Made by a program: the position numbers and the translations under genes. From a virus: 64,000 nucleotides of DNA. Of the stretch, positions 942 to 64,000 are shown one piece after another (within the stretch, counting starts at the first letter, position 1; the number at the start of each line of letters is the position of its first letter). The stretch is taken from IMG/VR virus record IMGVR_UViG_3300037245_003526, positions 24,297 through 88,296 of that record; one strand, 5' to 3'. The notes below the pieces were generated by a model. It worked only from the letters and a program-made list of their open reading frames with translations, did not search any database and was not told where the DNA came from.

Positions 942-1961
942 TTACCATCCTTTCTTATCATAGGGACATACAAATCTATCCTTATTTAAAATTTCTCTAA
1001 AGTTTTTAAAAGACTCTCCTTCATCCCATGCCAATTTTATCATAGCTTTATTTGTAGGTACTATGTTTTTTCCATATTGATCTCTGCATCCAAAAGAGCA
1101 AGGCATTAATCTCATATCTGGTGTAACATAGCAACTCATCCTCGCAGCTTCACAACTATCAACATATAATTCTTCACTTTCTGTAAGTTCTCTTACATTA
1201 GCAACTTTATTTACGAGACAACTATCCAACCCAATTTTAAACTTACTTTTGGGTTGTTCAATTAGTCTAGCAAAAGTTTCAAATTGCAAATCGGTTGGAT
1301 GCCAGTCTAAATTCTTTCCCCTACCTTGGGGTTTAAACAGAAGAAATATCACTGCATTCAATCGTTCTACGTCAACTAGACCATCCCATACGTCATTATC
1401 CTCAATGATACTTATCACATCAGAGAATGTATATTTAGAAAATAACTGATGGATATTAGTCTTAACTCCAGCATCCATTAGACGGTTTAATGCTGAATAT
1501 GTGAAGTCTTTTTTGTACATACTTACTGCGACTGCTCCACAATATTTCTTTGATATTTCTATCTGTTCATCTGTAAGACCATTACCGCTAGTAGTATAAT
1601 TTGGAACAACTCCATTTTCTCTAGCGTATCTAAGGATTTGCTCAAAGTATTCATGATGATTAGGATCACCCCTTCCACCAAGAGCTACTTGCATGACATG
1701 ATCCTTTGATGCATGAATAAGTCTTTTAAAATCCAACAGTGACATATTGGGTTCAGAGTCATCTCCCTGATAACAAAACTCACATTTATTTTTACAATGT
1801 CCCATAATGCCTACATCTATCATACTTGGATACTCTAATGAAAATGGATCAGGTTTTCCATCTTTTCCTGAAAGTAATTCCTGGCCGGTTTTAGTGTTAA
1901 ATAGAATAACATAATCTTCATTCTCAACTTTCTTATCATAAGCAAATACAATTTTCTTCAT
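942..1961 (-). CDS. Radical SAM enzyme with a C-terminal Cys-rich, SPASM/twitch-like region.
   Basis: It has a CxxxCxxC cluster (GHCKNKCEFCYQ) and a Gly-rich GGRGDP motif. The C-terminal region carries additional Cys (DSCLVN, DSCEAARMSC, PCSFGC, FVCPY). Confidence 0.7.
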   Translation of the reverse strand: MKKIVFAYDKKVENEDYVILFNTKTGQELLSGKDGKPDPFSLEYPSMIDVGIMGHCKNKCEFCYQGDDSEPNMSLLDFKRLIHASKDHVMQVALGGRGDPNHHEYFEQILRYARENGVVPNYTTSGNGLTDEQIEISKKYCGAVAVSMYKKDFTYSALNRLMDAGVKTNIHQLFSKYTFSDVISIIEDNDVWDGLVDVERLNAVIFLLFKPQGRGKNLDWHPTDLQFETFARLIEQPKSKFKIGLDSCLVNKVANVRELTESEELYVDSCEAARMSCYVTPDMRLMPCSFGCRDQYGKNIVPTNKAMIKLAWDEGESFKNFREILNKDRFVCPYDKKGW

Positions 1962-2744: not shown

Positions 2745-2761
2745 CCATCAATATTAACTAT

Positions 2762-3526: not shown

Positions 3527-3683
3527 TTAAAAACCTCCTTAATAAACTTGTTTAGCAGGGCAGCACGAAAATCTATTCTTACCTTGATTTATATATACTA
3601 CCCTATATTCATAACCATCCAACATGAAAATTTTTCCCTCCTTAGGTAAAGGTACTTTTTTATCTTCTTTTTTTTCTTCCTTT

Positions 3684-5496: not shown

Positions 5497-6351
5497 TTAA
5501 AAATAGTTATTAGAATTAAAACCACCATTTATACCCTTATACATCATTGCTACAGCTTCACTTGTGTGAATACTTTCTTCATGTACACATTTGACAATCC
5601 AGTCAGTTACTTTATCATTACTATTTAAACCTTGCGCTATTGCTCTAATAGCGTCCTCAACAAACATCGGATTTTTCCATGCATGTTTAGCAATTGTCAT
5701 TTCATCTTCTCTTTTGATAATAGGATATGGAAGAACCTTAACTGCTTTTTCTACTATATCAACAATATCCTCCAACCATAATGGACCTTTTAGATGATGA
5801 GGATGTCCCTCTACAAGAACATTAGCAAATGATCTTTGTGCATGAGGTGCAGCTCCACGACCTTTTCGAGCAAGGTACATTACTAACTCTTTACTACATG
5901 GACAATATGACGCATATTGAACTCTAACTCCTTGAAAGAATTTAAATTCATCTTCATCCAAAAGTTGTCCTTCAAACTTACAATCATAAAATAATGGAAA
6001 CTCATTATCAGATTTTATTGACTGTTTTATAATTGGTAACTTAAAGTCAAATCTCATATAAACATGATCAGTTTCTAAATTATCCCTAAGATCTTTTAAA
6101 ATATTAAGGATTAATGATTGCTTCAATGGTTCATCAAGATACCCACGTAAAGTTCGTATGCATCTTGACATTGAAATACCCTTTATGTTAGATTCTAAAC
6201 TTGCCCTCATAGAAACATTGGCAACCATATTTCTATAGTTGCCGTTTCTAGATTGTAACATAAACGGAACTTCAACATTTTCAACTCCAACCTGTTGAAT
6301 TGGAATTTTTACTTCAGGTTCGCTTTGTTGAATATCCGGTAAATCGCTCAT
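5497..6351 (-). CDS. Hypothetical protein.
   Basis: 284-aa ORF immediately downstream of RNAP beta. Confidence 0.4.
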   Translation of the reverse strand: MSDLPDIQQSEPEVKIPIQQVGVENVEVPFMLQSRNGNYRNMVANVSMRASLESNIKGISMSRCIRTLRGYLDEPLKQSLILNILKDLRDNLETDHVYMRFDFKLPIIKQSIKSDNEFPLFYDCKFEGQLLDEDEFKFFQGVRVQYASYCPCSKELVMYLARKGRGAAPHAQRSFANVLVEGHPHHLKGPLWLEDIVDIVEKAVKVLPYPIIKREDEMTIAKHAWKNPMFVEDAIRAIAQGLNSNDKVTDWIVKCVHEESIHTSEAVAMMYKGINGGFNSNNYF

Positions 6352-14329: not shown

Positions 14330-14411
14330 TCACAATTCACTCCCTTCATATTTTATGATCCCCACTTATAAATAAGCAGGGATCATAAATACTTTTAAAT
14401 TTTAGCAACTA

Positions 14412-14915: not shown

Positions 14916-14977
14916 TTTCTCCTTCCTTTCAGTTGGGGTGAACTGTTATAGTCCACCCCATTTTATAAGTTTAATTT

Positions 14978-15466: not shown

Positions 15467-15495
15467 TTTTCTTTTTCCTTTCTTTAAATGTTTTA

Positions 15496-16176
15496 TTAAA
15501 TTACTACTCGTTGTGCGGGTCTTACATTCATCATTTCCATATCAAAGTAAACTTCTGAATTCTTACCCGACCGTACATTACCTACTCCAACTAAGTCATA
15601 AAAATACCAGCACATTATAAGAGCCACAGTTATATTAGCAAATAACACTTGTGGCTCAGATACTGATAGTTCTTCACAACTCATTTGATCCGGAGATCTA
15701 TCTTCCGGGTTGTCTATCTCGGGATGATAGTCAGTAAGAGATGGTGTTATTTTTTTACCATTCTCTCGTATATAAATTTGCACATTTCCGTCAACAAATT
15801 CATTTCCTCCTGAGATTAAAACAACTTTTTCTAATGTAGTACAATAATCAGAAACAATTTTTCTAGTCCTATGATTATCTACACATAAAAATATGACATC
15901 ATCCTCTTCTATAATTCTATTGACATTCCTTGAGGTAACATAGTCTGTACATGTTAAAACTTCTAAATTATCAAATATTGCAATAAGATCTCTTCTCTTA
16001 ATTCTTGCCTTATTACCAAAGTTTGAAAAGGATTGTCTTTCTTTATTCCTTTCCTTGTAACTCTTTCCATCGATCAAAGTAATATTAAATTCACCATCAA
16101 TATAATTAACAAATCTGAAAAGGTTATCGCATAATGCAGAACCAACTCCTCCTAAACCTATAACTTTGATGTTCAT
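15496..16176 (-). CDS. ThiF/MoeB/E1-like adenylating enzyme (E1-like B).
   Basis: VIGLGGVGS (GxGxxG), then LIDGKSYKERNKERQ (a D..E.N..RQ ATP-binding motif), then DDVIFLCVDNHRTRK (DxxDN..R), then VVLISGGNE. Confidence 0.7.
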   Translation of the reverse strand: MNIKVIGLGGVGSALCDNLFRFVNYIDGEFNITLIDGKSYKERNKERQSFSNFGNKARIKRRDLIAIFDNLEVLTCTDYVTSRNVNRIIEEDDVIFLCVDNHRTRKIVSDYCTTLEKVVLISGGNEFVDGNVQIYIRENGKKITPSLTDYHPEIDNPEDRSPDQMSCEELSVSEPQVLFANITVALIMCWYFYDLVGVGNVRSGKNSEVYFDMEMMNVRPAQRVVI

Positions 16177-16191
16177 ATTTACTCCTTTCTA

Positions 16192-17214
16192 CTAAAATAT
16201 ACTAGATTCATCAGGTTCATCAGGTTCTTCTTTAAAACCTAATTTCTCTAATTGGTCTTCATCAAGTTCCTCAAAAATTTCCTGCATAAGAAGCTCTGTT
16301 TTATGCGCTTTATAAGGACACTGTTCACATGGATTCCATTCCTCATTTTTAATTCTGTAACCAGAATCATTTACACTTTCAGGTTTCAGTCTGAATGGAT
16401 TAAAATCATGTACTTTAAGTTTAGTTTCCTCAGGCAAGACTTTTTTAGCTTCTTCTTCATACTTGATTTTATCAACCATCTTTAACCATTTTTTTGGAAA
16501 TTTAATATTTCCGTCTATCACCCCCTTTACTTTATACCCAAGAGATGTCTTAGATGGTCTAACATCCTCTACTTGTTCATATTTTCCCTCCATAAGCGAC
16601 CATTTTTTATAAACTTCTCCAGGAATTTCAAACTCTTCAAGTTTGATTCCATCAATATAATTAGTTGGATCGCAAGTAAATCTTGTTCCATTTGCAACAA
16701 TAGAACAAGAGATTGATATTAAATCATTATTCATATTACCAACTGTAATATGAAGTCCATCAAAATCAACTTCATCTGTATCATCTGTTCCAGAATGAAA
16801 TGCTGACATTCCTGCGTGACTATGTATAGTACCTATCCTTTGATATCCTTTAATCTGTTCATTAAGATAAGCTACAGATCCACTACTAGTTTTCTGTAGA
16901 GGAACCTGAACTTTAAATTTACCAGATTTTTTATTAAAATGTATTACAGTGTTTGCCTCATTACTATTATAATCCTGATATACTTTCTTGAAAAAAGTAA
17001 TAATCTTTCCAAAATCTTCAGCTGAAATTCGTTTGATATTCATTTTTGCTTGAGGTATTATATCATCAGAAAGAAATGAAATCTTATTAATAGGTACTAT
17101 ACTTTCCATGAAACCTACTTTTTTCTTTAAGTAAACTTTATCCTTACAAATAATATATAAAACATCATCTGAAGGCATCTCATTTACACCATCATTTATA
17201 TGTACTTTAAACAT
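16192..17214 (-). CDS. JAB/JAMM (MPN+) family metalloprotease with a C-terminal extension.
   Basis: IHSHAGMSAFHSGTDD matches HxHx7Sx2D, with an upstream Glu. 340 aa, GGGAGGTG ribosome-binding site. Confidence 0.7.
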   Translation of the reverse strand: MFKVHINDGVNEMPSDDVLYIICKDKVYLKKKVGFMESIVPINKISFLSDDIIPQAKMNIKRISAEDFGKIITFFKKVYQDYNSNEANTVIHFNKKSGKFKVQVPLQKTSSGSVAYLNEQIKGYQRIGTIHSHAGMSAFHSGTDDTDEVDFDGLHITVGNMNNDLISISCSIVANGTRFTCDPTNYIDGIKLEEFEIPGEVYKKWSLMEGKYEQVEDVRPSKTSLGYKVKGVIDGNIKFPKKWLKMVDKIKYEEEAKKVLPEETKLKVHDFNPFRLKPESVNDSGYRIKNEEWNPCEQCPYKAHKTELLMQEIFEELDEDQLEKLGFKEEPDEPDESSIF

Positions 17215-28249: not shown

Positions 28250-29053
28250 CTATTCACATTTCTTCTGTTTTAAACCACTCCATCCATCAGATACACCAAG
28301 AGGAAATATCCTATCATTTACTGAGACACATAAATTACCATCCCTACATAAAATATTAGTTTCAGCTTTAATATTAGTTTCACATTCCATTGGTACTATA
28401 TCACCCCAATCATCAATGGCACCAATAGCAACTTCAGCTCCATTATAAAGTATATAAGCTTTCTTTTCCCTGCATATTATATCAATCATAGATGAGGAAG
28501 CTGATTTCTGTGCAATAGTATCCAACTTTTTTGCAAGAATATTTATACCCTTTTTGACTTGAGCAATACGTCTCTCAGTAGCATATTCTTTTACAGTTTT
28601 TTTAGCTGTATCAACAACAATCTCTTTTGCTGCATTTTTAGCTACTTTTTCTGAATATGCTTTGAAGTTTGGTATAGCTATAGCAGCCAATATAGCTATA
28701 ATAGAAATTACTATCATCAGCTCTATTAAAGTAAATCCACCTCCCCAACTACCACCTCCCTCACTTGGAGGACTTTCCAACTCACATATCTGTTTTTCAA
28801 ATTTTTCGATGTCTTTCTCACACTTTTTAATCTTTATGGTTACTCTAACTTCTTGTTCCATAGCATCCATTGTAGCTTTAACTTCATTTAATTTTTTAAC
28901 TTTATCTTTTAACTTCTTAACTTTATCCTCAACAGTCTCGGATATAAATTCACCTTGGGTAATTAAATTGACAATTCTTTTACCAACAAATTTCCATAAA
29001 CCCCAAGCAACAAATCCAATGAAAATTAACCCTATTATTCCCTGAGCAAACAT
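28250..29053 (-). CDS. Membrane-anchored coiled-coil protein with an internal type IV prepilin-like motif and a Cys-containing C-terminal domain.
   Basis: N-terminal TM helix, then a K/E-rich coiled coil, then GGGSWGGGFTLIELMIVISIIAILAAIAIPNF. That last stretch is a canonical class III signal with G|FTLIE, about 105 aa in from the start. The C-terminus has multiple Cys, as in pilin D-regions. Confidence 0.5.
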   Translation of the reverse strand: MFAQGIIGLIFIGFVAWGLWKFVGKRIVNLITQGEFISETVEDKVKKLKDKVKKLNEVKATMDAMEQEVRVTIKIKKCEKDIEKFEKQICELESPPSEGGGSWGGGFTLIELMIVISIIAILAAIAIPNFKAYSEKVAKNAAKEIVVDTAKKTVKEYATERRIAQVKKGINILAKKLDTIAQKSASSSMIDIICREKKAYILYNGAEVAIGAIDDWGDIVPMECETNIKAETNILCRDGNLCVSVNDRIFPLGVSDGWSGLKQKKCE

Positions 29054-29142
29054 ATTTTTATCTCCTTTTAATTTTAGAAAATGGGATCCCTAATTAAAGG
29101 GACCCCATTCTTATTAAATATATTTAATACTCTATAATTTAA

Positions 29143-30441
29143 CTATTTTTTTACTGCTCCCTTTGGTATATCCAGATTAAGACCAAGCTGCTTCAAAGCT
29201 ATAAGAGAAAGAACATCCTGCATAGCCAAAGCATCTCCATCTACTCCAGATTTTCCACTACCACCCATCATAACTGTTGGAACAGGTCTTATTGAAAAAG
29301 CATTTGCCCATACTTTCTGTACTCTTTCATAAGTTTTAAGCTTTTGTTCAAGAGCACCATCTGCTCTAAGGACAAGTTTCTTTCTTTCTGATTCACCCTG
29401 ACCCAATAGAATCAGCTCAGCTTTCTTAAATGCAGCAGCTTCCTTATCCAGCTTATTAACTGTCTTTCTTTGCTCACCACCAATTACAGCAACTTGTTTA
29501 TCCCTTTCAGCATTAAGTTCCTGTACCTCTTTATTCTTTTGAGCTTCAACTACAGCACGAACCTTCTTCTGCTCTTCCTCATATTTTGCTTTAGCAACCT
29601 TTGCTTTTCCCTGTGCCTCAATAGTAAGCTTCTCCTGCTCCGCTTTTTTGGCTTCAGTTATAGCAGTTGCAACAGCCATTAAGGATGCCTGTTGAGTAGC
29701 GATCTGTTCTTTAACCTTAGGTGCATATTCAAAAGTTTTAATCTCAAAGTTCTTGAGAGTAATACCTGTCCCCTCTAAAGGATTAGAAAGATATAGAGGT
29801 TGAGAGTTAGGTTTTCCATCTACCGTTTTAATAATTTTGAAAGTTTTATGAACCTTCTCACCAGATATAGGATCGATTACATCTCTTTCCTCATCCATTG
29901 TCTCATATAGACCATTCTCAACCTGGTCTCGTGCCCATGTATTATAATCAATTCTCTTAGAAGCATAAGACTCCTGAGCAGTCATCATATTTGCTGTCAT
30001 CCTCAGAGCATTACGAATAGTTGGAAGAATCATTTTATTTTGTACTTCTTCTGGAGATGCGTAACCATCTTCTGTTATAAGCTCTATAGCATCCTTTGCT
30101 CCAACAGGTAAAAGTACACGAGCAGTTCCTGAGATTTTACATAAGGAACCATCCACAAATCGTACCTCTATTGATTGATCATAACTTCCACCTTCTTCTA
30201 CATCATGTGTAAAGAAGAATGTAAATGCCTTTGGCCAGGTGTCAATGTCACCCCATAATTGAAGCCAAAGTCCTGGTTGCATTTTAGCAGACATTTTTCC
30301 TGTTACGGCTGCCTGCTTTATCTGATATGTACCTTTTCCTACAGTGCTAACAATTTTAGAAGCACATATCAAGGCTATAATAATACATATAACTGATATT
30401 ACTCCAATAACTACACCCCTGTTAATCTCTTGTTTTGCCAT
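29143..30441 (-). CDS. SPFH/band-7 (flotillin/HflK-like) membrane protein.
   Basis: N-terminal TM helix, an SPFH-like core (QPGLWLQLWGDIDTWP...SIEVRFVDG), and an EA-rich coiled coil (KKAEQEKLTIEAQGKAKVAKAKYEEEQKK). Confidence 0.5.
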   Translation of the reverse strand: MAKQEINRGVVIGVISVICIIIALICASKIVSTVGKGTYQIKQAAVTGKMSAKMQPGLWLQLWGDIDTWPKAFTFFFTHDVEEGGSYDQSIEVRFVDGSLCKISGTARVLLPVGAKDAIELITEDGYASPEEVQNKMILPTIRNALRMTANMMTAQESYASKRIDYNTWARDQVENGLYETMDEERDVIDPISGEKVHKTFKIIKTVDGKPNSQPLYLSNPLEGTGITLKNFEIKTFEYAPKVKEQIATQQASLMAVATAITEAKKAEQEKLTIEAQGKAKVAKAKYEEEQKKVRAVVEAQKNKEVQELNAERDKQVAVIGGEQRKTVNKLDKEAAAFKKAELILLGQGESERKKLVLRADGALEQKLKTYERVQKVWANAFSIRPVPTVMMGGSGKSGVDGDALAMQDVLSLIALKQLGLNLDIPKGAVKK

Positions 30442-30533: not shown

Positions 30534-31238
30534 TTAATTACCTCCTTTCCCAGCTTCTGGTTTTAAATATAGATTAATATTAAAAGTACCTTTTTGTCGA
30601 TTTAATGACTTTGTTTCTTTATGTCCATGAATGGTTAGTCTTCCGTCTATTTCCTTATTCCATACCTCTCTTTTTCTAAGTTCTTCAGCAGAATAACAAT
30701 CAGAGGTATTTGCATAATAACCCATAGGATCTCCACCGTTCCAACCATCTCCTCTAGTTTCATTAACTGTTTGATCATATTCAACCATTATTTTTTCACT
30801 ATCAAAATTTTCAAATATTTTTGACATAATTAATTTAAATGTATGATAAGGCATTTCAGTTTTTGGTGAAGTTGTATTTGGTGATAATCCTTCATACTCG
30901 ATTTTTATTTTTGATCCATTTTTTTTAACTCTAACTTTATATGAACCACATGCACCACAATTTTCACAATCTATAACTTTACACATTTCTTTATCTTTCA
31001 GAGTATATCCATCTTCGAACTGGTCAGGATTTCTAATGAAACCTTCAAATTCAAGATTATCATGTTTAATTTTTAGAAATGATGAAAAACCTTTGAATTC
31101 AAGATCATTGCTCATAACTGCAGAAATAAATGATGGAAGATCTATTTCCTCATCTGTAAAAATATTTGTTTTTCCAATTCCTTTTAAAACAAATGATGTC
31201 GAACTACTATTAGTTACAAAATCTCCTTTTATTTTCAT
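30534..31238 (-). CDS. Member of the MKxKGDFVTNSSSTS family, long form.
   Basis: It starts MKIKGDFVTNSSSTSFVL and has the C-terminal GDGWNGGDPMGYY motif shared with 21992-22690. Confidence 0.6.
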   Translation of the reverse strand: MKIKGDFVTNSSSTSFVLKGIGKTNIFTDEEIDLPSFISAVMSNDLEFKGFSSFLKIKHDNLEFEGFIRNPDQFEDGYTLKDKEMCKVIDCENCGACGSYKVRVKKNGSKIKIEYEGLSPNTTSPKTEMPYHTFKLIMSKIFENFDSEKIMVEYDQTVNETRGDGWNGGDPMGYYANTSDCYSAEELRKREVWNKEIDGRLTIHGHKETKSLNRQKGTFNINLYLKPEAGKGGN

Positions 31239-31547: not shown

Positions 31548-32957
31548 TTATTCTCCCTTCATAATTTTTAAGAACTGATCTTCATCGACCAGGACTCTTT
31601 TCATATCACTATTTATAAATATAAACTGAATTTTCCATTTCTTTTTATTATAAAATTCAAGTCTTTTATATAAAGTATTTTTAATATTAGGACATCCCAT
31701 ATCTACCATATCAATAATAATAGGAATCTTTTTTCCTTCTTTTAATCTATTTATTCTTCCTGCTAGCTGCTCCATATTACCAACAGGAGATGTAACTACT
31801 AAACAATCTAACCAATTAGCATCTACACCATCACGAATTTTATTTGGAGTCGAAAATACGACATTCTTTTCTAATTCTTTTCTACTCGAACCAGCTACAA
31901 ATCTTCCTTTATTTTCAAGTGGATACCAGTCATATAAAATATCAATTAATTTTTCTACTCTTTCACATATTACTAAAGCTTTTCTTTTTTCATTAGAAAC
32001 TTTCATAACAATAGATTTAACAATGTTCATAAATATTTTAGAATTCTTCATTATATTAAGATATCTTGCTCTTTGAAAGTTTCCATCCCAATGTAAATAT
32101 CTATATCTTCTTGGTTGGTCTATTTGATAATCAAAGCCTATTACAGTAACTCTTGCTGGCATTGTACCTTCAGTGCTCTCAATATTAAAAACTTTACCTA
32201 GATGATATTCAATAATATCTGTATTACCATCATATCTGTATGGTGTAGCACTCAATCCAAATGTTACTCTACATGGCATATGAATTGAGCATTCAGAAAA
32301 TGTTTCAGCTCCAACTGTTGTATGAACTTCATCAGCAATAAATATTCCAAATTTAGCTTTATTTAATTTAATTAAAAATCCAACTCTCTTTCTTTTCAAT
32401 AATGAAATAAATGTTTGATTAGTTCCTATAACTATTGGTTTATCCATTTCTTCATCAAATTTAGCAGAAGATAAAATTCCTATTTGATCAGATTCTAAAT
32501 TTGTGAATTCTACAATTCGATCTCTCCATTGTTTTACTAATGAGTCTCGGTGAACCAGTATAAATGACTTCTTTTTTCTTTCAGCAATTGCATAAATAGA
32601 TATTACTGTTTTACCAGTTCCAGGATTCAATTGAATTATAGCATTATCTTTCGTCAACATAAAATTCATAGTCTTTCTTTGAATATCGTTTCTTGCTATA
32701 ATATTATGCTCTATTTGAATATCTTTGCCTTCATGACTTGTATCAAGTACCTTAAAATCATAATAATTATGAATTGGAAAGAATCTAGGAACATTTAAAT
32801 GTCTTTCTGTTTCTAAAAAATATTTCTGAGTAGTAAAAAGATCAGAATTATATTCCTTTGTTTTTCTTGTTAGATGTGCTCTTATATTACAATAGAAATC
32901 AGTATTATCATATTTATTAGGAATAAGAAGTCCAGATCTTTTAATTATTGATATCAT
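31548..32957 (-). CDS. SF2 DExH-box helicase.
   Basis: Motif I NPGTGKT, motif II DEVH, motif III SAT, motif VI QLAGRINR. Confidence 0.7.
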   Translation of the reverse strand: MISIIKRSGLLIPNKYDNTDFYCNIRAHLTRKTKEYNSDLFTTQKYFLETERHLNVPRFFPIHNYYDFKVLDTSHEGKDIQIEHNIIARNDIQRKTMNFMLTKDNAIIQLNPGTGKTVISIYAIAERKKKSFILVHRDSLVKQWRDRIVEFTNLESDQIGILSSAKFDEEMDKPIVIGTNQTFISLLKRKRVGFLIKLNKAKFGIFIADEVHTTVGAETFSECSIHMPCRVTFGLSATPYRYDGNTDIIEYHLGKVFNIESTEGTMPARVTVIGFDYQIDQPRRYRYLHWDGNFQRARYLNIMKNSKIFMNIVKSIVMKVSNEKRKALVICERVEKLIDILYDWYPLENKGRFVAGSSRKELEKNVVFSTPNKIRDGVDANWLDCLVVTSPVGNMEQLAGRINRLKEGKKIPIIIDMVDMGCPNIKNTLYKRLEFYNKKKWKIQFIFINSDMKRVLVDEDQFLKIMKGE

Positions 32958-32967
32958 TATTTACCTC

Positions 32968-33444
32968 CTAACTTAGAGAATACTGTGCAGCTCCAGAATC
33001 ATTCTCCCAAACTCTTATAAAGCTAACTGTTGGATTATTTTTAAAATTAGCATCTCTTAAATCTTCGCTAAGTTTAAAATATAAATGTTCAGCAAAAACT
33101 TCTGCTGTAGGATCTTGTCCTATAGAACTTATAGTCTGAGTACGATAATCTTGCTTCTTAAAAAATTCTATATTATCCTTATCAACTATATTTAAAATAG
33201 TTGTATGATCAAATACTTTAAGCAAATCATTTACAATTAACTTTAAGTCATGAAAATCAAGAACCATATCATTTTCATTTAATGAATCCGATTTTAATTC
33301 AACTTCAATCTTAAGATTATGTCCATGGATATTCTTACATAACCCTTTGTGTTTACTCAGTCTATGACCAATAGGGATTTTGAATATCTTTCTTAGTCTA
33401 TACATTATTCCTCCTTTATATTTCAGTATATTGTTTAATAACAA
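32968..33444 (-). CDS. queD: QueD/6-pyruvoyl-tetrahydropterin synthase-family protein (6-carboxytetrahydropterin synthase-like).
   Basis: HRL, then the zinc motif CKNIHGH (Cx3HGH), then DFHDLK, DHT.ILN, and QDPTAEVFAEHLY. These sit in the same order as in QueD/PTPS. Confidence 0.75.
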   Translation of the reverse strand: MLLNNILKYKGGIMYRLRKIFKIPIGHRLSKHKGLCKNIHGHNLKIEVELKSDSLNENDMVLDFHDLKLIVNDLLKVFDHTTILNIVDKDNIEFFKKQDYRTQTISSIGQDPTAEVFAEHLYFKLSEDLRDANFKNNPTVSFIRVWENDSGAAQYSLS

Positions 33445-34750
33445 ACTTATTTATATTTTTTAATTTATCTTTAAAATCATCAACTTTATTTTTTATTTCT
33501 GTTGTATCAGTACTAATTGTTAAAAGTTTTTTGATTCTATATTTTTCAGTTAATGTTTTAATCATTTCTACATCGACGCCAGATATTTCGGATATATATT
33601 TATAATTTTTTATAAGTTCTTCTTGAGTAAGAACTTTTCCATATTTAGGTGCGAGAAGTTCAGATAGTGGGCGTCTTATTTTTTCTAAACATTCTAATTC
33701 ATTAATATAGATATTTGCTTTTGAAATCTCTGTATTTAACATATCATTATTAGTTGATCTAAACATTTTAAAAGTTTCAACTAACATTGTATCAATTGGA
33801 GTAACCTGTACATTACCATCAAGATCAACAGTATTTGTCTCAAATGGAACACTTCCTGTAACTGCATCTTTGATATTCTTATCAAGTTCCTTGAATATTT
33901 TAAATCTATTTCTTTGTTTTAATACTGAGAATACTATATTAGTTCCTTTTTCACCATTAGATGAATCAACATAACCAATATCTCCATTTTCTAATTGTTT
34001 TTTAATATTCTTCTTTTTTAATAAAGCTGCATCAAATCCTTTTCCTGGTGGCCAACTTTTAACTGTTATAGTACTTTTTACATTATTTTTTACTGTTTTA
34101 CCAACTACACTAATTTTCGCTTTACCAGTTGTTAAAAGCTGTTCAAGTTCCTCATCTGTTGCAGTTATTTTACAGTTAGAAATAGGTTTAATTATAGGTT
34201 TTGATAATTTTGGATTTAATTTCCAGTATAATCTTTTCCTTAAATCTTCTAATTCATAACAAGGAACCTTCGTACTATATCCAAAACCTATTCCTTGTAA
34301 GTATTCTTTTCCTAAAAGACATAATGGAAACATAGTAGGAAGATAAGAAGGTTCATCATCTAATTCAGATTCAACAAAATCAACATATTTTATATATTTG
34401 AATGCCATATTATTTATAAAACTTGATAATTTACATTCAGTGTATCTTTGTGCTGCTGGGGGTGATGGTATTACACCCAAATTATTACCAAAATTTCCTT
34501 GACCTATAAGAAATCCTTGTTTAACCAATTGAACTATGGTTCCGTATGTATCTCCGTGAGGATGAAACTTTGCTATACATGTTCCATTAACTCTAGCACT
34601 TTTAACCTCTTTATCCCTTGCTATCATATAAGACGTCAATAATATTCTTCTTTCTACTGGTTTAAGTCCGTCTATAGATAATGGTAAAGCTCTAGATTTA
34701 TTTACATATGCACCATAACTTGCATAACATTTTTTTATTAAATTATCCAT
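33416..34750 (-). CDS. Type II topoisomerase DNA breakage-reunion subunit (GyrA/ParC N-terminal, T4 gp52-like).
   Basis: DGLKPVERRIL...SARVNGTCIAKFHPHGDTYGTIVQLVKQGF matches the GyrA/ParC/gp52 signature. Confidence 0.75.
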   Translation of the reverse strand: MDNLIKKCYASYGAYVNKSRALPLSIDGLKPVERRILLTSYMIARDKEVKSARVNGTCIAKFHPHGDTYGTIVQLVKQGFLIGQGNFGNNLGVIPSPPAAQRYTECKLSSFINNMAFKYIKYVDFVESELDDEPSYLPTMFPLCLLGKEYLQGIGFGYSTKVPCYELEDLRKRLYWKLNPKLSKPIIKPISNCKITATDEELEQLLTTGKAKISVVGKTVKNNVKSTITVKSWPPGKGFDAALLKKKNIKKQLENGDIGYVDSSNGEKGTNIVFSVLKQRNRFKIFKELDKNIKDAVTGSVPFETNTVDLDGNVQVTPIDTMLVETFKMFRSTNNDMLNTEISKANIYINELECLEKIRRPLSELLAPKYGKVLTQEELIKNYKYISEISGVDVEMIKTLTEKYRIKKLLTISTDTTEIKNKVDDFKDKLKNINKFVIKQYTEI

Positions 34751-44170: not shown

Positions 44171-44467
44171 TTATTCTGCTATTACTAATACTGGTTGAGC
44201 GGGATTATCAAGGTCATAAACTAAATTATGATCCTGAAATTTCCTATCTGCTACTGACATTCTATTTTTCATACCAGATGACATATACTGATTTTCATAA
44301 AAAAATGAACAACCATTTTTAAAATCAAATGATATTCCATCTGGAGTTTCAACTACTTCTTTTACAAATGCTCTATCAATAACAATGTTTAATTCAATAC
44401 TCTTTTTCTTGATTGTTAATGTTTTATTAGATAATTTTACTTTTGCTTCTTTATTCGCTTTTATCAT
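44171..44467 (-). CDS. Hypothetical small protein.
   Basis: 98-aa ORF. Confidence 0.3.
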   Translation of the reverse strand: MIKANKEAKVKLSNKTLTIKKKSIELNIVIDRAFVKEVVETPDGISFDFKNGCSFFYENQYMSSGMKNRMSVADRKFQDHNLVYDLDNPAQPVLVIAE

Positions 44468-45053
44468 AATTAACTCCTTCTATCATTCTTAATACAATTA
44501 ACATTCTAAATTTTTCAGTGATTTCATAGAACCATTTAATGATCCCGTCTTTATAATATGTTCTCAAGAAAAAAGTAATTAACTCATTTAAATCCCTGGA
44601 TTCTATCTGATCTTCAATTTCAGAGATAACTTTCATAGAATTATTTTCACAATATTTAACTACATCTAGACCCCGTAATTCTACTTTTAAGAACTTCCAA
44701 ACATCACTTAAAAAACTAATACAATCATAATTAATGAACTCTAAAAACTCATATAGATCATTCATAATAAGTTGATTATTAAATTCTGGTCTTGGAGTGA
44801 ATTCAAACTCATATAGTTCATCAATTTTTTCTAAAATTTTAATACAAGCAGCTTTTTGATTAGGAATGGGTAATCCTTTTACTATCCATATATTATTTGA
44901 ATAAATTTCCTTGAATTCTGGGGTTCCTATACTATCAACAAGCTCCAAAATATCATATTGGTTTGATGCTTCTTCTTGATTACCTACTAAATCCTCATCA
45001 TCCATTTCTAAAGGACTTATAGAAGAACCCATCAAAATTTTTAAATTATTCAT
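44451..45053 (-). CDS. Hypothetical protein.
   Basis: 200-aa ORF directly downstream of RNAP beta set 2. Confidence 0.35.
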   Translation of the reverse strand: MNNLKILMGSSISPLEMDDEDLVGNQEEASNQYDILELVDSIGTPEFKEIYSNNIWIVKGLPIPNQKAACIKILEKIDELYEFEFTPRPEFNNQLIMNDLYEFLEFINYDCISFLSDVWKFLKVELRGLDVVKYCENNSMKVISEIEDQIESRDLNELITFFLRTYYKDGIIKWFYEITEKFRMLIVLRMIEGVNYDKSE

Positions 45054-45054
45054 T

Positions 45055-48000
45055 TTATCTCCAAATCATTAAACTTATAAAGTATGAATTTAATAAATCT
45101 CTTACCGGTGCATGTTTAGGAGGTCTATACTTAGCACCACCTGTTTGAATAATATCAGATAATATTTCATTCTTTGTTACATGATCATCAGATAAAGGAC
45201 CAAAAAATTCTTCTAGTAAAGAAGGACAATTATAAGAAATAAATGAATACGTATCTAATTCACCCATTCTTTGACCACCGTCTTTTCTTTTGCCGGCAGT
45301 AGGTTGAAATGTCTTGGATGTAATAGGTCCAGTACTTCTAACATGAAGTTTTTCAGATCCTATATGTTCAAGTTTAAGCATATACAAATATCCAACTGCT
45401 ACTGGATATTTTGTTGTTGTATTATACTCTGGAAGTCTTAATTTATATCCAGGTTTTAATTTAAGTGCTTTTAAAGTAGCTAAAATTTCTTTATAAGATG
45501 GAGCTTTAAAAGGAGGAATTAATAATGTCATACTCCCGCTAGCTTTTACTTGACTAATAAATTTAGTAAACATAGCAGCAGACATACCTCTAAATTTAGA
45601 TATAAGACCCTTACTAAATTCTTTATTTTTAGTAGTATCAAGTTTAGGTAAGACTTGATTCAATAATGCCACTACTTTTGGTTTATTATTTAATTTTATT
45701 ATTTGTCTTCCTAACTCATGCGAAATTAAACCTGTATATGTTTCATAAAACTGACCAACATTCATTCTTCCTATAATACCTACAGGATTTAAAATAATAT
45801 CTATTCGATCTCCAGTTGGGGAAATAGGCATATTTTCATCTTTTTCAATTAATGAAATAATACCCTTTGCTCCATGTCTATTAGTTAACTTATCACCAAC
45901 CATAACTGGTAGCTCTTGTTCTACTTTAAATCTTATAACAACACCTTTTACATTTTCACCCCTATTAGTAAATTTTTCTTTAGGTTTTAGTTTATATCTT
46001 TTTCTGGTTCTATCAACAAGTGGTTTCAATTCTGGAAATATACTTTCTCTTAAATTAGAAAACACTTCAATATCAACAATTTTCCCACCTGGTGATTTTT
46101 TAATATAGTGTCCTGCTATGATATCAACACCTTCTTCTTCCTCGTCATAACCTATTAATTGCTCGATTTCACCCACTGTTTTTCGTATTAACACTTCACC
46201 TTTTTCAGTTTCAGCACCTAACTCAACCATTTTTATAATTCTATCACCTTTATCAATTTGTACTTCTTCAACTATTCCATGAAGTGATGTAAGGAGTTCT
46301 TTCTTAACAACTGATTCTGAAATAACAATACCATCCTCAAAATTATGACCCTTATAAGGCATAAATGCTACACATAAAGTTCTACCTAAAGCTATAGATC
46401 CAGAAGTAATACATGAACCCTCAGCAATAATTTGTTTATTTTTAACAACCTGACCAACTTTAACTACCGGTTTGAAAACACTTAAAGTATTTTTTCCAGC
46501 TCCTGATCTAAGATGAACTGGTACTATATCAATCTTATTAGTCTTCCCACCTGTGCAAGTAACACTAATAAAATCCTCAGTAATATTTTTTATTTTTCCA
46601 TTACATGGTGATCTTTTAATAAATGCATCAGATAAGACACTAGTTAATATTGATTCATATCCTGTTTGAATAGATGGTGTTTCTGGATTCTTTAGTGGTA
46701 CAGACTGTCTTTGCTGATTACATCCAAACATAACTCTGTTACCATCATTATTTTCTACAAAAGGAATTTGAGCTGCAGTAGTTGAAAGTAAACCAGAATC
46801 TTCTCCTTCCTTAATACCTTTTGGAGTTATTAAACCTCTTGCTGATGTAATATATGCATCAACAGTAAGCTGCTGAACTATTCCTACATTTTCACCTTCT
46901 GGTGTATCTAATGTATCAATATTTCCATACATAGATGTATGGACATTTCTTCCTTCCATTTGAATTGCCGTCTTATCAGGTATTCCTCCAATTGATTTAC
47001 CTACTGGAGATATTCTTGTTTTGGTAGCCATTTCTTCAACTGGATTTGCATATTCCATATCAACAACAATTTCTGAATTTATAAATTCGCTTAATACTTT
47101 TGTTGGAGATAATTCAAAAGTTGCTTTCTTGTTTCCGGATAATACTTGCTCTTTATATTCTGTATATGAAGCTAATATTTGTTTTTGTGCTAGATGTACT
47201 AAAATCTCAGAGTTTCTTATTCTTTGATTTGAGACATCATTTCTTTTTTGTGTAAATCCTTCAACTGCTTTAGACGCCATGTATTTCATTATTAAATCAA
47301 GATTACTTGGTAATTGTTGATTTATAAGAACTTGTTTAGCAACCGGATCAACAATATTTTCTAAGTTTGATTGGATTAAAAATGTAGAATTTATTCTTCC
47401 GCTCATTTTTATTATAAGATCATTAAAATATTCTTTTGTACCAAATTCTTTATCTATTTTAAATGAAGAAATATTAGCATGTATAAAAGATTGACATAAT
47501 TCTTCTTGAAGTTTAGTTTCAGCTCCATTGAAAACTATATATTTATTCGGTTCAATCAAAGATCTAAATTTTTCCTCTTTTGGACGTTCCTCTTCAAACT
47601 TATGGGTTAGATTATATAATTTTAATGTTTCTTTAAAACCAAAACTAAAAGCAAGTAGTATCATTAATGGAAGTTTATAAGAACCAATATAAGCTTCTAA
47701 GTATTCTTCTCTTATAGTTCTCTTACTCCATATATGAAATGTAGAATAACTACTTTCAAATTTTGAGTCAAATTGTTTAGGAAATGAAATAGGATTAAGA
47801 ACTATTTGATTAATTAAACATTTCTTTCTACCATTAACAAGAAATGTTCCATCTTCTGATATCTTAGGTACATCTATTCGAACTACATGTTTTTTATTAT
47901 ACATACCTGTTAATGTTACTTCGACAGTATTTATATCTGATCTACTTAGTTCACCCATATTAGTTGGTTTTTCAATTATTTTAATACTCTTATAAGTTAG

Positions 48001-49143
48001 TGGAACCTCTTTAGTTTTTAGAACCTTAAATGAGTTTGCCATATCCTTTTTAAGATTAGTTTCAAAATCAATTTTTCTCTTCTCAAATAAATGTTCAGGA
48101 GACTTATTATCAACCATTTTTGGAGCATTAGATAATTGTATTACTACATCTCCTGAAGTTGTTTCAGTCTTTTGAGGTTTTAGTAGTTCATCAGCATATT
48201 GTCTATCAACTACTTTTAATGAAAGTAATTTCTTAGCTTTAGGAATAGATTTAGCAGTTCTAGATGCCTTTTCAATATCACCTGAAGTCCTGTATAATAT
48301 TGAAGCAGTTGCAATTTCTCTAGCATCATTGTCATCAACTAAATCATAAGTAACCTTATCCATTTCTTTTTTATTTTTTGTAAAAAAGTCATAGATAGCA
48401 GCAAAAATTTTAGACCTATTAGAAGGACTAACGTCTCCATCAATTCTTCTCATTATAGAGGATGTAGCAAGACTAATTTTCTTATGTTCTTCTTCTTCTG
48501 TATCTATAAGTTTTATATTCTTTAAAAATTGTTTAACCCTTGTAAATTTGAAGTCTTTGTCTTTTATAAGCAGTCTATAATTAGATGAAGATTCATTTAT
48601 AATATTCATAATCAAATGATCATAATTAATTTCTTCCTTCTTTAAATCAAGTAATAAAGGAAATATCTTTCTATCAATTAGACTCTTTGTTTCTTTAGTA
48701 GCATCAACTGAATATAAAAGAACTTTCTGATAATTTGGAGGGAAACTACTTAGAACTTTTAAAAGCATATTTTTAATTAAGAAACCTGCTCTTTGTCTAT
48801 AATTAGTAACCTTGTATGATATGTCTATTGTATTTAAAAAACCGGAAAGGTCATATACTAAATTTTGTCCCTTTGGTACTTTCTGGTTAGAACTTAAAGC
48901 AAGTAAACTATGACTTTTATATAAATTCTTTATATCAGGAGTTAAATAAGAAATTGGAATCTTTGTACGCGGAACTATTACATACCTAACATCTATTCGT
49001 TTCAAATTCAACTTTTCGTAATCATCTATAAAAGATGAATTTTCACTAAAATAGATTAATAAAAAAGGTTCTTTTCTATTTTGAGGAAAACGAATTCCAT
49101 CTACTAGATGTGTATATTGTCTTATTGATTTGAATTGAATCAT
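45055..49143 (-). CDS. Multisubunit RNA polymerase beta-subunit homolog (set 2).
   Basis: GDKLTNRHGAKGIIS, and CNQQRQS-like and other beta-region motifs. 1362 aa. Confidence 0.85.
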   Translation of the reverse strand: MIQFKSIRQYTHLVDGIRFPQNRKEPFLLIYFSENSSFIDDYEKLNLKRIDVRYVIVPRTKIPISYLTPDIKNLYKSHSLLALSSNQKVPKGQNLVYDLSGFLNTIDISYKVTNYRQRAGFLIKNMLLKVLSSFPPNYQKVLLYSVDATKETKSLIDRKIFPLLLDLKKEEINYDHLIMNIINESSSNYRLLIKDKDFKFTRVKQFLKNIKLIDTEEEEHKKISLATSSIMRRIDGDVSPSNRSKIFAAIYDFFTKNKKEMDKVTYDLVDDNDAREIATASILYRTSGDIEKASRTAKSIPKAKKLLSLKVVDRQYADELLKPQKTETTSGDVVIQLSNAPKMVDNKSPEHLFEKRKIDFETNLKKDMANSFKVLKTKEVPLTYKSIKIIEKPTNMGELSRSDINTVEVTLTGMYNKKHVVRIDVPKISEDGTFLVNGRKKCLINQIVLNPISFPKQFDSKFESSYSTFHIWSKRTIREEYLEAYIGSYKLPLMILLAFSFGFKETLKLYNLTHKFEEERPKEEKFRSLIEPNKYIVFNGAETKLQEELCQSFIHANISSFKIDKEFGTKEYFNDLIIKMSGRINSTFLIQSNLENIVDPVAKQVLINQQLPSNLDLIMKYMASKAVEGFTQKRNDVSNQRIRNSEILVHLAQKQILASYTEYKEQVLSGNKKATFELSPTKVLSEFINSEIVVDMEYANPVEEMATKTRISPVGKSIGGIPDKTAIQMEGRNVHTSMYGNIDTLDTPEGENVGIVQQLTVDAYITSARGLITPKGIKEGEDSGLLSTTAAQIPFVENNDGNRVMFGCNQQRQSVPLKNPETPSIQTGYESILTSVLSDAFIKRSPCNGKIKNITEDFISVTCTGGKTNKIDIVPVHLRSGAGKNTLSVFKPVVKVGQVVKNKQIIAEGSCITSGSIALGRTLCVAFMPYKGHNFEDGIVISESVVKKELLTSLHGIVEEVQIDKGDRIIKMVELGAETEKGEVLIRKTVGEIEQLIGYDEEEEGVDIIAGHYIKKSPGGKIVDIEVFSNLRESIFPELKPLVDRTRKRYKLKPKEKFTNRGENVKGVVIRFKVEQELPVMVGDKLTNRHGAKGIISLIEKDENMPISPTGDRIDIILNPVGIIGRMNVGQFYETYTGLISHELGRQIIKLNNKPKVVALLNQVLPKLDTTKNKEFSKGLISKFRGMSAAMFTKFISQVKASGSMTLLIPPFKAPSYKEILATLKALKLKPGYKLRLPEYNTTTKYPVAVGYLYMLKLEHIGSEKLHVRSTGPITSKTFQPTAGKRKDGGQRMGELDTYSFISYNCPSLLEEFFGPLSDDHVTKNEILSDIIQTGGAKYRPPKHAPVRDLLNSYFISLMIWR

Positions 49144-63891: not shown

Positions 63892-64000
63892 ATTTTTAAC
63901 AATTTTATTCCATATAAATCTTGCCTTTTCTTTTCCATAAGTTCTTTGCTTAAATTTAAATTCCCAGTCTTTATCTAATTCAACTGCTTCTAAAAATTGA

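What the first reader, a model, noticed from the sequence alone, without database searches (positions are those of the whole stretch)
32968..33444. QueD homolog suggests 7-deazaguanine (queuosine-pathway) chemistry, possibly DNA modification
The protein has the clear Cx3HGH zinc motif and ordered QueD/PTPS motifs. Phages that carry queD usually also carry folE, queE, queC and a DpdA-like transglycosylase and insert 7-deazaguanine derivatives into their DNA to evade restriction. The two radical SAM genes in this window look like SPASM types rather than QueE, so the rest of the pathway, if present, must lie elsewhere.
Basis: established knowledge. Interest (0 to 1): 0.5.

Follow-up and report, generated by a model that had tools for sequence, protein, structure and literature searches.

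The report
Orphan QueD–FolE2 pair in jumbo phage

Summary
A 145-aa PTPS/QueD-family protein is encoded on the minus strand at 32968..33405; the true start is the ATG at 33405, not the TTG at 33444. It carries CxxxHGH and every catalytic residue, all invariant in 41 relatives.

Both genes are conserved core genes of a large uncultivated jumbo-phage clade with two multisubunit RNA polymerases. QueD lies between topoisomerase II and a helicase. FolE2 follows an RNA polymerase beta gene, 22-27 kb away.

No QueE, QueC, FolE or DpdA was found in:
- the window;
- 14.5 kb of flanks in the closest relative;
- about 2.3 Mb of neighbourhoods in about 130 loci from related contigs.

The same models found these genes next to 23 of 27 other phage QueD genes. 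Both radical SAM proteins are SPASM/twitch types, not QueE. Some clade members carry a Qng1-like queuine-salvage gene next to RNR.

Best reading: a two-step GTP-to-CPH4 feeder for 7-deazaguanine bases. The sink is unresolved: phage DNA about 0.45, host Q-tRNA about 0.3. About two thirds of the 244.5-kb genome was not retrievable.

The parts
32968..33405 (-). QueD-type 6-carboxy-5,6,7,8-tetrahydropterin (CPH4) synthase gene, 145 aa plus stop. Zn ligands H14, H27, H29; catalytic C23; D66-H67; E102; E134.
   Evidence: Pfam PTPS 2.4e-28. Invariant residues in 41 homologs. AlphaFold2 pLDDT 96.4 and Foldseek matches to QueD2 and E. coli QueD. Public gene call of 145 aa.
33410..33416 (-). Shine-Dalgarno sequence AAGGAGG, 4 nt upstream of the ATG at 33405.
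   Evidence: Read directly from the sequence. It supports the ATG start over the TTG at 33444.
5497..6351 (-). FolE2 (GTP cyclohydrolase IB), 284 aa. It makes 7,8-dihydroneopterin triphosphate, the substrate of QueD.
   Evidence: Pfam PF02649 2e-66. NCBIfam NF010200 equivalog at 230.3 bits, above the cutoff of 215. It lies on the same contigs as clade QueD, 22-25 kb away in 9 of 10 IMG/VR contigs.
33416..34750 (-). Context: topoisomerase II A-type subunit directly upstream of QueD (10-nt gap).
   Evidence: Pfam DNA_topoisoIV 7.9e-46. A homolog is present in 31 of 35 related QueD loci (gene order shown).
31548..32957 (-). Context: ResIII/DEAD helicase directly downstream of QueD (10-nt gap; a 4-nt overlap in relatives).
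   Evidence: Pfam ResIII 7.5e-21. A homolog is present in 33 of 35 related QueD loci. Overlapping gene coordinates are seen.
20947..21978 (-). Examined and excluded as QueE: radical SAM protein 2, with three invariant C-terminal cysteines. It is conserved next to SbcCD in the clade.
   Evidence: NCBIfam best hits are PapB, viperin, NirJ and MoaA. The 25-sequence profile against PDB hits MoaA best and lists no QueE. hhalign to QueE covers only about 99 core columns.
942..1961 (-). Examined and excluded as QueE: radical SAM protein 1 (SPASM-like). It is an accessory gene, found in 6 of 82 FolE2 loci.

Best explanation
The gene encodes a catalytically intact QueD-type CPH4 synthase. It is a conserved core gene of a large clade of uncultivated ~250-kb jumbo phages. 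It sits in the replication module between topoisomerase II and a helicase and is expressed with them. It works with a phage-encoded FolE2 27 kb away. FolE2 converts GTP to dihydroneopterin triphosphate, and QueD converts that to CPH4, the committed precursor of all 7-deazaguanines. The phage therefore carries a two-step feeder rather than the usual clustered pathway. The next steps (QueE, QueC) and the base-inserting transglycosylase must come from the unseen two thirds of the genome or from the host. My pick for the sink is 7-deazaguanine modification of phage DNA. Shown here: the enzyme family, the intact active site, the presence of FolE2, their co-occurrence and synteny, and the absence of partner genes nearby. 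Inferred: the catalytic activity, the coupling of the two enzymes, everything after CPH4, and the sink. Sub-confidences: QueD-type enzyme 0.85; feeder with FolE2 0.7; DNA as sink about 0.45.
For: Family and active site: Pfam PTPS 2.4e-28. CxxxHGH is the PTPS-I/QueD signature (PMC5041015). H14, C23, H27, G28, H29, D66-H67, E102 and E134 are invariant in 41 homologs. The fold matches QueD2 and E. coli QueD. FolE2. Co-occurrence on 10 IMG/VR contigs, plus matching contig lengths. Conserved synteny. A link to 7-deazaguanine handling elsewhere in the clade: a Qng1/Q_salvage gene sits directly upstream of RNR in 9 clade loci, and three of the IMG/VR contigs involved also carry clade QueD (Qng1 function from PMC9881137). 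For DNA as the sink: of the phages once listed as having pathway genes but no DpdA, those later examined (Campylobacter CP220, Halovirus HVTV-1, Cellulophaga phiST) turned out to have modified DNA, and a divergent TGT/DpdA homolog in phiST was detectable only by HHpred (PMC6884629 and PMC10516641). QueD also lies in the replication module.
Against: No QueE, QueC, FolE, QueF or DpdA was found in the window by Pfam on about 60 proteins, by PHROGs on 20, or by local HMMs on all ORFs. No SGGxDS PP-loop motif and no CxCxxC motif in any ORF above 105 aa were found. None was found in the closest relative's flanks. None was found in about 2.3 Mb around QueD, FolE2 and RNR in related contigs, while the positive control scored 23 of 27. 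QueD scores below NCBI's QueD equivalog cutoff, 81.1 against 89.25 bits. The G-containing palindromes CATG, TGCA and GATC are under-represented at z -3.3 to -5.4. That is weakly at odds with general protection of guanines.
Confidence: 0.5

Rival explanations
1. Q-tRNA booster. The phage supplies only the first, metal-sensitive and committed steps (FolE2, QueD). In some relatives it also supplies a Qng1-like queuine-salvage enzyme. This raises the host's pool of queuosine precursors. Host QueE, QueC, QueF and Tgt then load more Q onto tRNA-Asn, -Asp, -His and -Tyr, which helps translate a genome dominated by NAU codons.
For: Only two upstream genes are found despite wide sampling. The known role of Qng1 is queuine salvage for tRNA, and Qng1-like genes lie next to RNR in 9 clade loci. 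NAU makes up 88-92% of NAY codons, and NAY makes up 17% of all codons. Hutinet et al. proposed exactly this for 48 phages with pathway genes but no DpdA. FolE2 is the metal-flexible paralog (PMC9894224).
Against: No phage has been shown experimentally to do this. No Tgt, QueA or QueG was seen, and the window holds no tRNA genes. QueD's conserved place is in the DNA replication module, not with translation genes. AT-rich codon usage is common in phages that lack queD.
Confidence: 0.28
2. Non-canonical pathway. The clade uses FolE2 and QueD but replaces QueE, QueC and DpdA with unrelated proteins. A candidate is the MoaA/viperin-like twitch/SPASM radical SAM enzyme conserved near QueD, or other unknown core proteins. 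The product would be a new deazapurine- or pterin-derived compound or DNA modification.
For: Radical SAM 2 is conserved in 31 of 35 QueD loci. In the gene tables shown it lies about 7 kb downstream of QueD. Its best solved relatives act on nucleoside triphosphates: MoaA, which uses GTP, and viperin-like enzymes. A 377-aa unknown next to FolE2 recurs 2.5 kb from a Qng1-like gene in an unrelated contig. Canonical partners are absent everywhere sampled.
Against: The co-location is equally explained by both genes being core genes of one replication module. No chemistry links a SPASM/twitch enzyme to CPH4. The unknown proteins gave no profile or structure match.
Confidence: 0.12
3. Pterin or folate enzyme. 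FolE2 plus a PTPS-family enzyme make a pterin, either 6-pyruvoyl-tetrahydropterin or 6-hydroxymethyl-dihydropterin for folate. No deazapurine is involved.
For: FolE2's product is shared with folate synthesis. PTPS-family enzymes are promiscuous and often mis-annotated (PMC5041015). QueD falls below the NCBI equivalog cutoff.
Against: The motif is CxxxHGH (PTPS-I). The residue after the Cys is K, Q, F or R in the sequences displayed, and Glu is not seen there, so the PTPS-III signature ExxHGH is not met. The PTPS-II spacing Cx5HGH is not met either. No sepiapterin reductase, FolK, FolP or FolB hit appeared in the window.
Confidence: 0.07

Closest known systems
Bacterial QueD (PTPS-I; E. coli YgcM, PDB 4NTK)
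   Same: T-fold. CxxxHGH motif, three-His zinc site, Cys/Asp/His catalytic set and pterin-binding Glu residues.
   Different: Only 18-20% identity in the structural alignment. The phage protein is about 25 residues longer, with an insertion between the DH and PTAE motifs. It scores below the TIGR03367 equivalog cutoff. An invariant His19 lies four residues before the catalytic Cys.
A. baumannii QueD2 (PDB 7V0F), the low-zinc paralog
   Same: Best sequence match among solved structures (8e-12, about 30% identity). Similar longer architecture. Like QueD2, it is paired in the same genome with FolE2, the metal-flexible cyclohydrolase.
   Different: QueD2 is defined by Cx4HGH and an invariant Cys18. 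The phage protein has Cx3HGH and no such Cys.
Clustered phage 7-deazaguanine systems (phages 9g, CAjan, Dp-1: FolE-QueD-QueE-QueC-DpdA)
   Same: A phage-encoded QueD with a GTP cyclohydrolase, placed next to replication genes.
   Different: Here the cyclohydrolase is FolE2, not FolE. The two genes are 22-27 kb apart. QueE, QueC and DpdA are not nearby in any of about 130 loci from related contigs, whereas 23 of 27 other phage QueD loci have them within 10 kb.
Phages with preQ0-pathway genes but no DpdA (Hutinet 2019 group 4) and jumbo phages with 'only a subset' of the system (Iyer 2021)
   Same: A partial pathway without a recognisable transglycosylase.
   Different: The group is described as carrying preQ0/G+ pathway proteins without DpdA. 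This clade shows only the first two steps, uses FolE2, and has both genes fixed in core modules.
DpdL (QueD paralog, proposed CDG decarboxylase of Cellulophaga phage phiST)
   Same: A PTPS-fold protein in a phage.
   Different: DpdL has LxxxHRHxF and lacks the catalytic Cys. This protein keeps CxxxHGH.

Membership tests
PTPS/QueD superfamily (Pfam PF01242, T-fold) | Profile match above the curated threshold | tested here: met
   99 bits against a gathering score of 22.4, E=2.4e-28, covering 2-119 of 121 profile positions.
PTPS/QueD superfamily (Pfam PF01242, T-fold) | T-fold structure | tested here: met
   AlphaFold2 pLDDT 96.4. The top 36 Foldseek hits, all at E<=1e-5, are QueD, QueD2 or PTPS chains, plus the uncharacterized WS1659.
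PTPS/QueD superfamily (Pfam PF01242, T-fold) | Three-histidine metal site | tested here: met
   H14, H27 and H29 are invariant in 41 homologs.
QueD / PTPS-I (CPH4 synthase, EC 4.1.2.50) | CxxxHGH signature with the catalytic Cys | tested here: met
   C23-K-N-I-H-G-H, invariant in the clade. The signature is defined in PMC5041015.
QueD / PTPS-I (CPH4 synthase, EC 4.1.2.50) | NCBIfam TIGR03367 equivalog score | tested here: not met
   81.1 bits against a cutoff of 89.25. This is a near miss.
QueD / PTPS-I (CPH4 synthase, EC 4.1.2.50) | Genomic association with a GTP cyclohydrolase I | tested here: met
   FolE2 lies in the same window and on 10 shared IMG/VR contigs.
QueD / PTPS-I (CPH4 synthase, EC 4.1.2.50) | Genomic association with QueE and QueC | tested here: not met
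   None in the window or within 10 kb in 33 clade loci. The nearest cellular homologs (Akkermansia, 33-40% identity) are also mostly unclustered.
QueD / PTPS-I (CPH4 synthase, EC 4.1.2.50) | Conversion of H2NTP to CPH4 | not testable with these tools
   This needs an enzyme assay or delta-queD complementation.
QueD2 (low-zinc paralog) | Cx4HGH motif and invariant Cys18 | tested here: not met
   The spacing is Cx3HGH, and no Cys is present at the Cys18 position; an invariant His19 lies next to it.
PTPS-III (folate) and PTPS-II (biopterin) | ExxHGH (III) or Cx5HGH (II) | tested here: not met
   The residue after the Cys is K, Q, F or R in the sequences displayed; Glu is not seen there. The spacing is x3.
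DpdL (CDG decarboxylase) | LxxxHRHxF, with no catalytic Cys | tested here: not met
   The Cys and HGH are retained.
Phage 7-deazaguanine DNA-modification system | DpdA-type DNA transglycosylase | tested here: inconclusive
   Not found in the window, in 14.5 kb of relatives' flanks, or in about 2.3 Mb of clade neighbourhoods. About two thirds of the genome was unseen, and a divergent phage TGT/DpdA homolog was reported to be detectable only by HHpred.
Phage 7-deazaguanine DNA-modification system | QueE and QueC encoded by the phage | tested here: inconclusive
   Not found in the same sequence set. No PP-loop motif is present. Both radical SAM proteins are non-QueE.
Phage 7-deazaguanine DNA-modification system | Tight clustering of the pathway genes | tested here: not met
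   QueD and FolE2 are 27 kb apart here and 22-25 kb apart in relatives. 0 of 33 clade loci have partner genes within 10 kb, against 23 of 27 other phage loci.
Phage 7-deazaguanine DNA-modification system | 7-deazaguanine deoxynucleosides in virion DNA | not testable with these tools
   This needs LC-MS/MS on DNA of a cultured or enriched phage.
FolE2 (GTP cyclohydrolase IB) | Curated equivalog score and a full-length match | tested here: met
   NF010200 at 230.3 bits, above 215, covering 1-268 of 270. The MptA and GCH-IV models score far below their cutoffs.

The most novel reading that the evidence does not exclude
This clade of uncultivated jumbo phages (FolE2 relatives on 172 IMG/VR contigs) carries FolE2 and QueD, plus a Qng1-like glycosylase in some members, but truly lacks QueE, QueC and DpdA. 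It would then run an undescribed route from CPH4 or H2NTP. That route might use the conserved MoaA/viperin-like twitch radical SAM enzyme or unknown core proteins. The product would be a new nucleobase or DNA modification, or the phage would deliberately reprogram host Q-tRNA.
Probability: 0.12. Interest if true: 0.8.

Novelty: new variant of a known kind. Interest (0 to 1): 0.45.

Why it matters
Phage 7-deazaguanine systems are known as compact clusters built around FolE and DpdA. Here a widespread, uncultured jumbo-phage lineage keeps only the first two steps. It uses FolE2, which has no credible match in the deposited phage collection: the three hits in INPHARED include two Staphylococcus records that look bacterial and one unannotated fecal contig. 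Both genes are fixed in core replication and transcription modules. If the remaining genes exist elsewhere, the clade is a new, dispersed architecture for DNA hypermodification in giant phages. If they do not, it is the best candidate so far for the long-proposed but never demonstrated idea that phages boost host queuosine-tRNA. Complete clade genomes already exist in public assemblies, so either way the question becomes testable.

Tried and rejected
1. Retrieving the parent contig (JGI, 244,552 bp).
- Exact 50-mers from the window end were absent from viral contigs and metagenome contigs.
- Exact-protein look-ups for end genes failed.
- A DNA search hit returns only about 1.8 kb.
- Whole-genome screening was therefore impossible.

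2. The weak Dp-1 QueF hit to 44451..45053 (E=0.0027) was rejected. It is an acidic, low-complexity protein with no Pfam support.

3. Radical SAM 2 as a divergent QueE was rejected.
- It shares only about 99 core columns with QueE.
- It lacks the region upstream of the Fe-S motif that the Dp-1 QueE has.
- Its best families are SPASM/twitch.

4. Small radical SAM ORFs in relatives were rejected as QueE.
- L151 carries a 243-aa ORF next to a sugar epimerase.
- L159 carries a 174-aa ORF next to a 637-aa protein in the position where relatives have RNR. I infer an NrdG/NrdD pair.

5. The Xanthomonas jumbo phage PhiXhv-15 'QueD-like' gene was dropped as an analogue. Its motif is CRLVHGY, which puts it in a different subfamily.

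6. The conserved unknowns downstream of FolE2 (128, 254, 255 and 377 aa) were tested as hidden QueC, QueE or DpdA.
- hhalign probabilities were at most 0.8%.
- Profiles of the 128-, 255- and 377-aa families found nothing in PDB sequences; the 254-aa family was not searched there.
- The single-sequence model was useless, with pLDDT 30.5.

7. A single-protein RecA scan of IMG/VR found nothing.

8. The short QueC-like ORF in L178 lacks the C-terminal Cys cluster. Its relatives are not on any clade contig.

9. Rfam found no preQ1 riboswitch or any other family in the window.

Full report
**The observation**

The window carries an ORF at 32968..33444 on the minus strand. It matches Pfam PTPS (PF01242) at E=2.4e-28, 99 bits against a gathering score of 22.4. 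It also matches the PHROG 'QueD-like 6-pyruvoyl-tetrahydropterin synthase' at 9.9e-27.

The listed TTG start is probably wrong.
- An ATG at 33405 is preceded by AAGGAGG at 33410-33416.
- All 40 aligned homologs start at the equivalent 'MY'.
- Public gene calls give 145 aa.

The gene is therefore 32968..33405 (-).

Across 41 homologs of 40-80% identity these residues are invariant: H14, H19, C23, H27, G28, H29, D50-F51, D66-H67, P99-T100, E102 and E134. That is the full metal-binding and catalytic set of the family, kept under purifying selection.

An AlphaFold2 model built on that alignment has pLDDT 96.4. Its best solved neighbours are WS1659, A. baumannii QueD2 and E. coli QueD, ahead of eukaryotic PTPS. 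By sequence the best solved relative is QueD2 (7V0F, 8e-12).

**Which subfamily**

The published signatures are CxxxHGH for PTPS-I/QueD, Cx5HGH for PTPS-II and ExxHGH for PTPS-III (PMC5041015).
- This protein and its clade have Cx3HGH.
- The residue after the Cys is K, Q, F or R in the displayed sequences, and Glu is not seen there. It is therefore QueD-type, not a folate or biopterin enzyme.
- It is not QueD2 in the strict sense, which requires Cx4HGH plus Cys18 (PMC9894224).
- It is not the decarboxylase DpdL, which has LxxxHRHxF (PMC10516641).
- It falls just short of NCBI's QueD equivalog cutoff, 81.1 against 89.25 bits.

All genes in the window lie on the minus strand, G+C is 28-32%, and there are no tRNA genes. 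I scanned about 60 window proteins against Pfam.

The scan found a FolE2 GTP cyclohydrolase IB at 5497..6351 (2e-66). It passes the NCBIfam FolE2 equivalog cutoff at 230.3 against 215 bits. FolE2 makes dihydroneopterin triphosphate, the substrate of QueD. The phage therefore encodes steps 1 and 2 of the preQ0 pathway.

FolE2 has no credible match in the deposited phage collection. A tblastn against 50,697 INPHARED records gave three hits. Two are Staphylococcus 'phage' records, one of which also carries bacterial rpoB, and the third is an unannotated fecal-sample contig.

**What kind of genome this is**

The window encodes:
- two sets of multisubunit RNA polymerase beta and beta-prime genes;
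- topoisomerase II;
- SbcCD;
- a RecA-like protein;
- RNR;
- a ThiF-ThiF-JAB cassette;
- virion proteins.

Nothing in INPHARED is close. The nearest real phages are the AR9/PBS1/phiR1-37 group, at about 25% identity in RNA polymerase beta.

The exact QueD and RNR proteins sit on a 244,552-bp JGI contig. I could not retrieve that contig.

**A conserved, unclustered arrangement**

QueD homologs of 38-80% identity occur on many long metagenomic contigs and on 27 IMG/VR contigs.

Around QueD the gene order is topo II B, topo II A, QueD, ResIII helicase, SbcD, SbcC, radical SAM 2, WYL_2, then an ~860-aa protein. Of 35 related loci, homologs of the helicase occur in 33, topo II A in 31 and radical SAM 2 in 31. 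QueD and the helicase are 10 nt apart here and overlap by 4 nt in relatives.

FolE2 relatives occur on 172 IMG/VR contigs. There the order is ThiF, ThiF, RNA polymerase beta-prime, RNA polymerase beta, FolE2, a variable stretch, then 128-, 254- and 255-aa unknowns.

Ten IMG/VR contigs carry both genes. They are 22-25 kb apart in nine of them, and 27 kb apart in the window.

A 255,557-bp contig filed under a 'Candidatus Thorarchaeota' MAG is a phage of this clade.

**Search for the rest of the pathway**

Pfam on about 60 window proteins, PHROGs on 20, and phmmer with the annotated Dp-1 proteins found no QueE, QueC, FolE, QueF or TGT/DpdA. No ORF has the QueC PP-loop motif SGGxDS. The TGT-type CxCxxC motif occurs only in a 105-aa ORF.

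The more distant QueD loci from IMG/VR (26-36% identity) gave a positive control.
- 23 of 27 carry QueC, QueE, FolE or DpdA within 10 kb.
- 0 of 33 clade loci do.

HMMs built from those canonical genes were run on several further sets.
- The window: nothing.
- 1.39 Mb around FolE2 in 80 contigs: nothing.
- The closest relative (NCBI assembly GCA_024449895.1; RNR 85% and FolE2 80% identical): nothing. Its contigs extend the window by 10 kb on the right and 4.5 kb on the left.
- Loci around RNR: nothing.

Profile-profile comparison of conserved unknowns with the pathway families gave probabilities of at most 0.8%.

The caveats are real.
- My models derive from DpdA genes in canonical clusters.
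- A divergent phage TGT/DpdA homolog has needed HHpred to be seen.
- About two thirds of the genome is unseen.

**The radical SAM proteins**

Both match SPASM/twitch families (PapB, NirJ, MoaA, viperin, PqqE). Neither matches any QueE model.

A 25-sequence profile of radical SAM 2 hits MoaA best among solved structures, and no QueE appears up to E=1. Similarity to QueE is limited to about 99 core columns.

**A second link to 7-deazaguanines in the clade**

In nine clade loci (seven IMG/VR contigs plus one JGI and one ENA contig), a PF10343 Q_salvage (Qng1/DUF2419) gene sits directly upstream of RNR.
- The two sequences I read end in ...TITTDY, a C-terminal Tyr like that of Qng1, whose C-terminal tail reaches into the active site.
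- Qng1 releases queuine from queuosine 5'-monophosphate (PMC9881137).
- Three of the seven IMG/VR contigs also carry clade QueD, and a fourth carries FolE2.
- The closest relative of this window lacks it at that position, where the order is LigD_N then RNR. It may therefore be absent here.

This gene strengthens the case that the lineage handles free 7-deazaguanine bases. It fits a tRNA sink as well as a DNA sink.

**Weighing the sinks**

For DNA:
- Of the phages once listed as having pathway genes but no DpdA, those later examined (Campylobacter CP220, Halovirus HVTV-1, Cellulophaga phiST) proved to have modified DNA.
- QueD sits in the replication module.

For tRNA:
- Only the committed, metal-sensitive steps are encoded.
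- A queuine-salvage gene is present in relatives.
- NAU codons make up 88-92% of NAY codons, and NAY codons are 17% of all codons.
- Hutinet et al. proposed this role for such phages.

Weakly against general guanine protection: CATG, TGCA and GATC are under-represented at z -3.3 to -5.4.

If QueE, QueC and DpdA were scattered at random through the genome, missing all three in the third I examined would happen roughly 30% of the time. I therefore put their presence elsewhere at about one half. My estimates are DNA about 0.45, Q-tRNA about 0.28, an undescribed route about 0.12 and a pterin role about 0.07.

**Novelty**

Partial deazaguanine systems in jumbo phages have been noted (PMC7824862), and phages with pathway genes but no DpdA are a known group.

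Three things are new here:
- the use of FolE2;
- the fixed, dispersed placement of just the first two steps in core modules;
- the size of the uncultured clade that shares the arrangement.

The nearest cellular QueD homologs among species-representative genomes are only 33-40% identical, mostly from Akkermansia and other Verrucomicrobiota. I rate this a new variant of a known kind, of moderate interest.

Noticed in passing
It is the upstream partner of QueD. It has no credible match in deposited phage genomes but occurs on 172 IMG/VR contigs.
   Followed up: yes
L161 9130-9984; L162 9110-9982; L163-L168 and L172 around 10001-10870: A Qng1/DUF2419 'Q_salvage' gene (the two sequences read end in ...TITTDY) sits directly upstream of RNR in nine clade loci. 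Several of these contigs also carry clade QueD or FolE2. It is absent at that position in the closest relative (L152).
   Followed up: partly
window 6493-9552, 9943-12672, 45055-49143, 50177-52522 (all -): Two sets of multisubunit RNA polymerase beta-like and beta-prime-like genes. The beta and beta-prime genes are long single ORFs (781-1362 aa). The nearest deposited phages are the AR9/PBS1/phiR1-37 group, at about 25% identity.
   Followed up: partly
window 13442-17214 (-): Two ThiF-family E1-like genes plus a JAB / PRTRC-protein-A-like gene form a cassette. It is conserved upstream of the RNA polymerase genes across the clade.
   Followed up: no
window 20947-21978 (-) and neighbours 20346-20946: A twitch/SPASM radical SAM enzyme with invariant C311, C314 and C318. 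It is conserved next to SbcCD and a WYL_2 protein in 31 of 35 loci. Its best solved relatives are MoaA and viperin-like enzymes, and its substrate is unknown.
   Followed up: partly
window 1977-4070 (-): Three unknown proteins (128, 254 and 255 aa) are conserved downstream of FolE2 in 78-80 of 82 loci. None has a Pfam or PHROG match of note, and the two families searched (128 and 255 aa) have none in PDB sequences. The 255-aa family has invariant D31, C35-H36-Y37, Y103-D104-G105 and K151-G152. By eye this is reminiscent of polymerase palm motifs, but I did not test that.
   Followed up: partly
window 4345-5478 (-); L178 6352-7470 (-): A highly conserved 377-aa unknown lies next to FolE2 in 16 of 82 loci. 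It has a 45%-identical homolog 2.5 kb from a Qng1-like gene and 10 kb from a truncated QueC-like gene in an otherwise unrelated viral contig. Its structure could not be predicted.
   Followed up: partly
window 29-406, 21992-22690, 30534-31238 (-): Three paralogous ORFs share the N-terminus M(K/E)xKGDF(V/I)TNSSSTS(F/Y). Two of them also share a C-terminal GGWxGGDPMG motif. Their function is unknown.
   Followed up: no
L160 (NCBI JBHLRM010000001.1, 255,557 bp); also P0024 and P0261: A contig labelled 'Candidatus Thorarchaeota archaeon' has the clade's JAB - ThiF - RNA polymerase - FolE2 synteny. It is therefore a jumbo-phage genome binned into an archaeal MAG. Other clade proteins carry Pacearchaeota and Heimdallarchaeota MAG labels. 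This could be mis-binning or a hint about the host.
   Followed up: partly
window 62848-64000 (-): The RNR gene is cut by the window end. The full protein is 575 aa (P0241), and relatives are annotated as adenosylcobalamin-dependent class II RNR. Relatives carry rubrerythrin and desulfoferrodoxin-like genes nearby, which suggests anaerobic hosts.
   Followed up: partly
whole window: The 4-mer palindromes CTAG (z -5.8), CATG (-5.4), TGCA (-4.8) and GATC (-3.3) are under-represented relative to a maximal-order Markov expectation.
   Followed up: no
window 28250-30441 (-): A protein with a type IV pilin-like N-terminal methylation motif (N_methyl, residues 106-127) lies next to an SPFH/Band 7 protein. 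Both sit inside the replication-module region.
   Followed up: no
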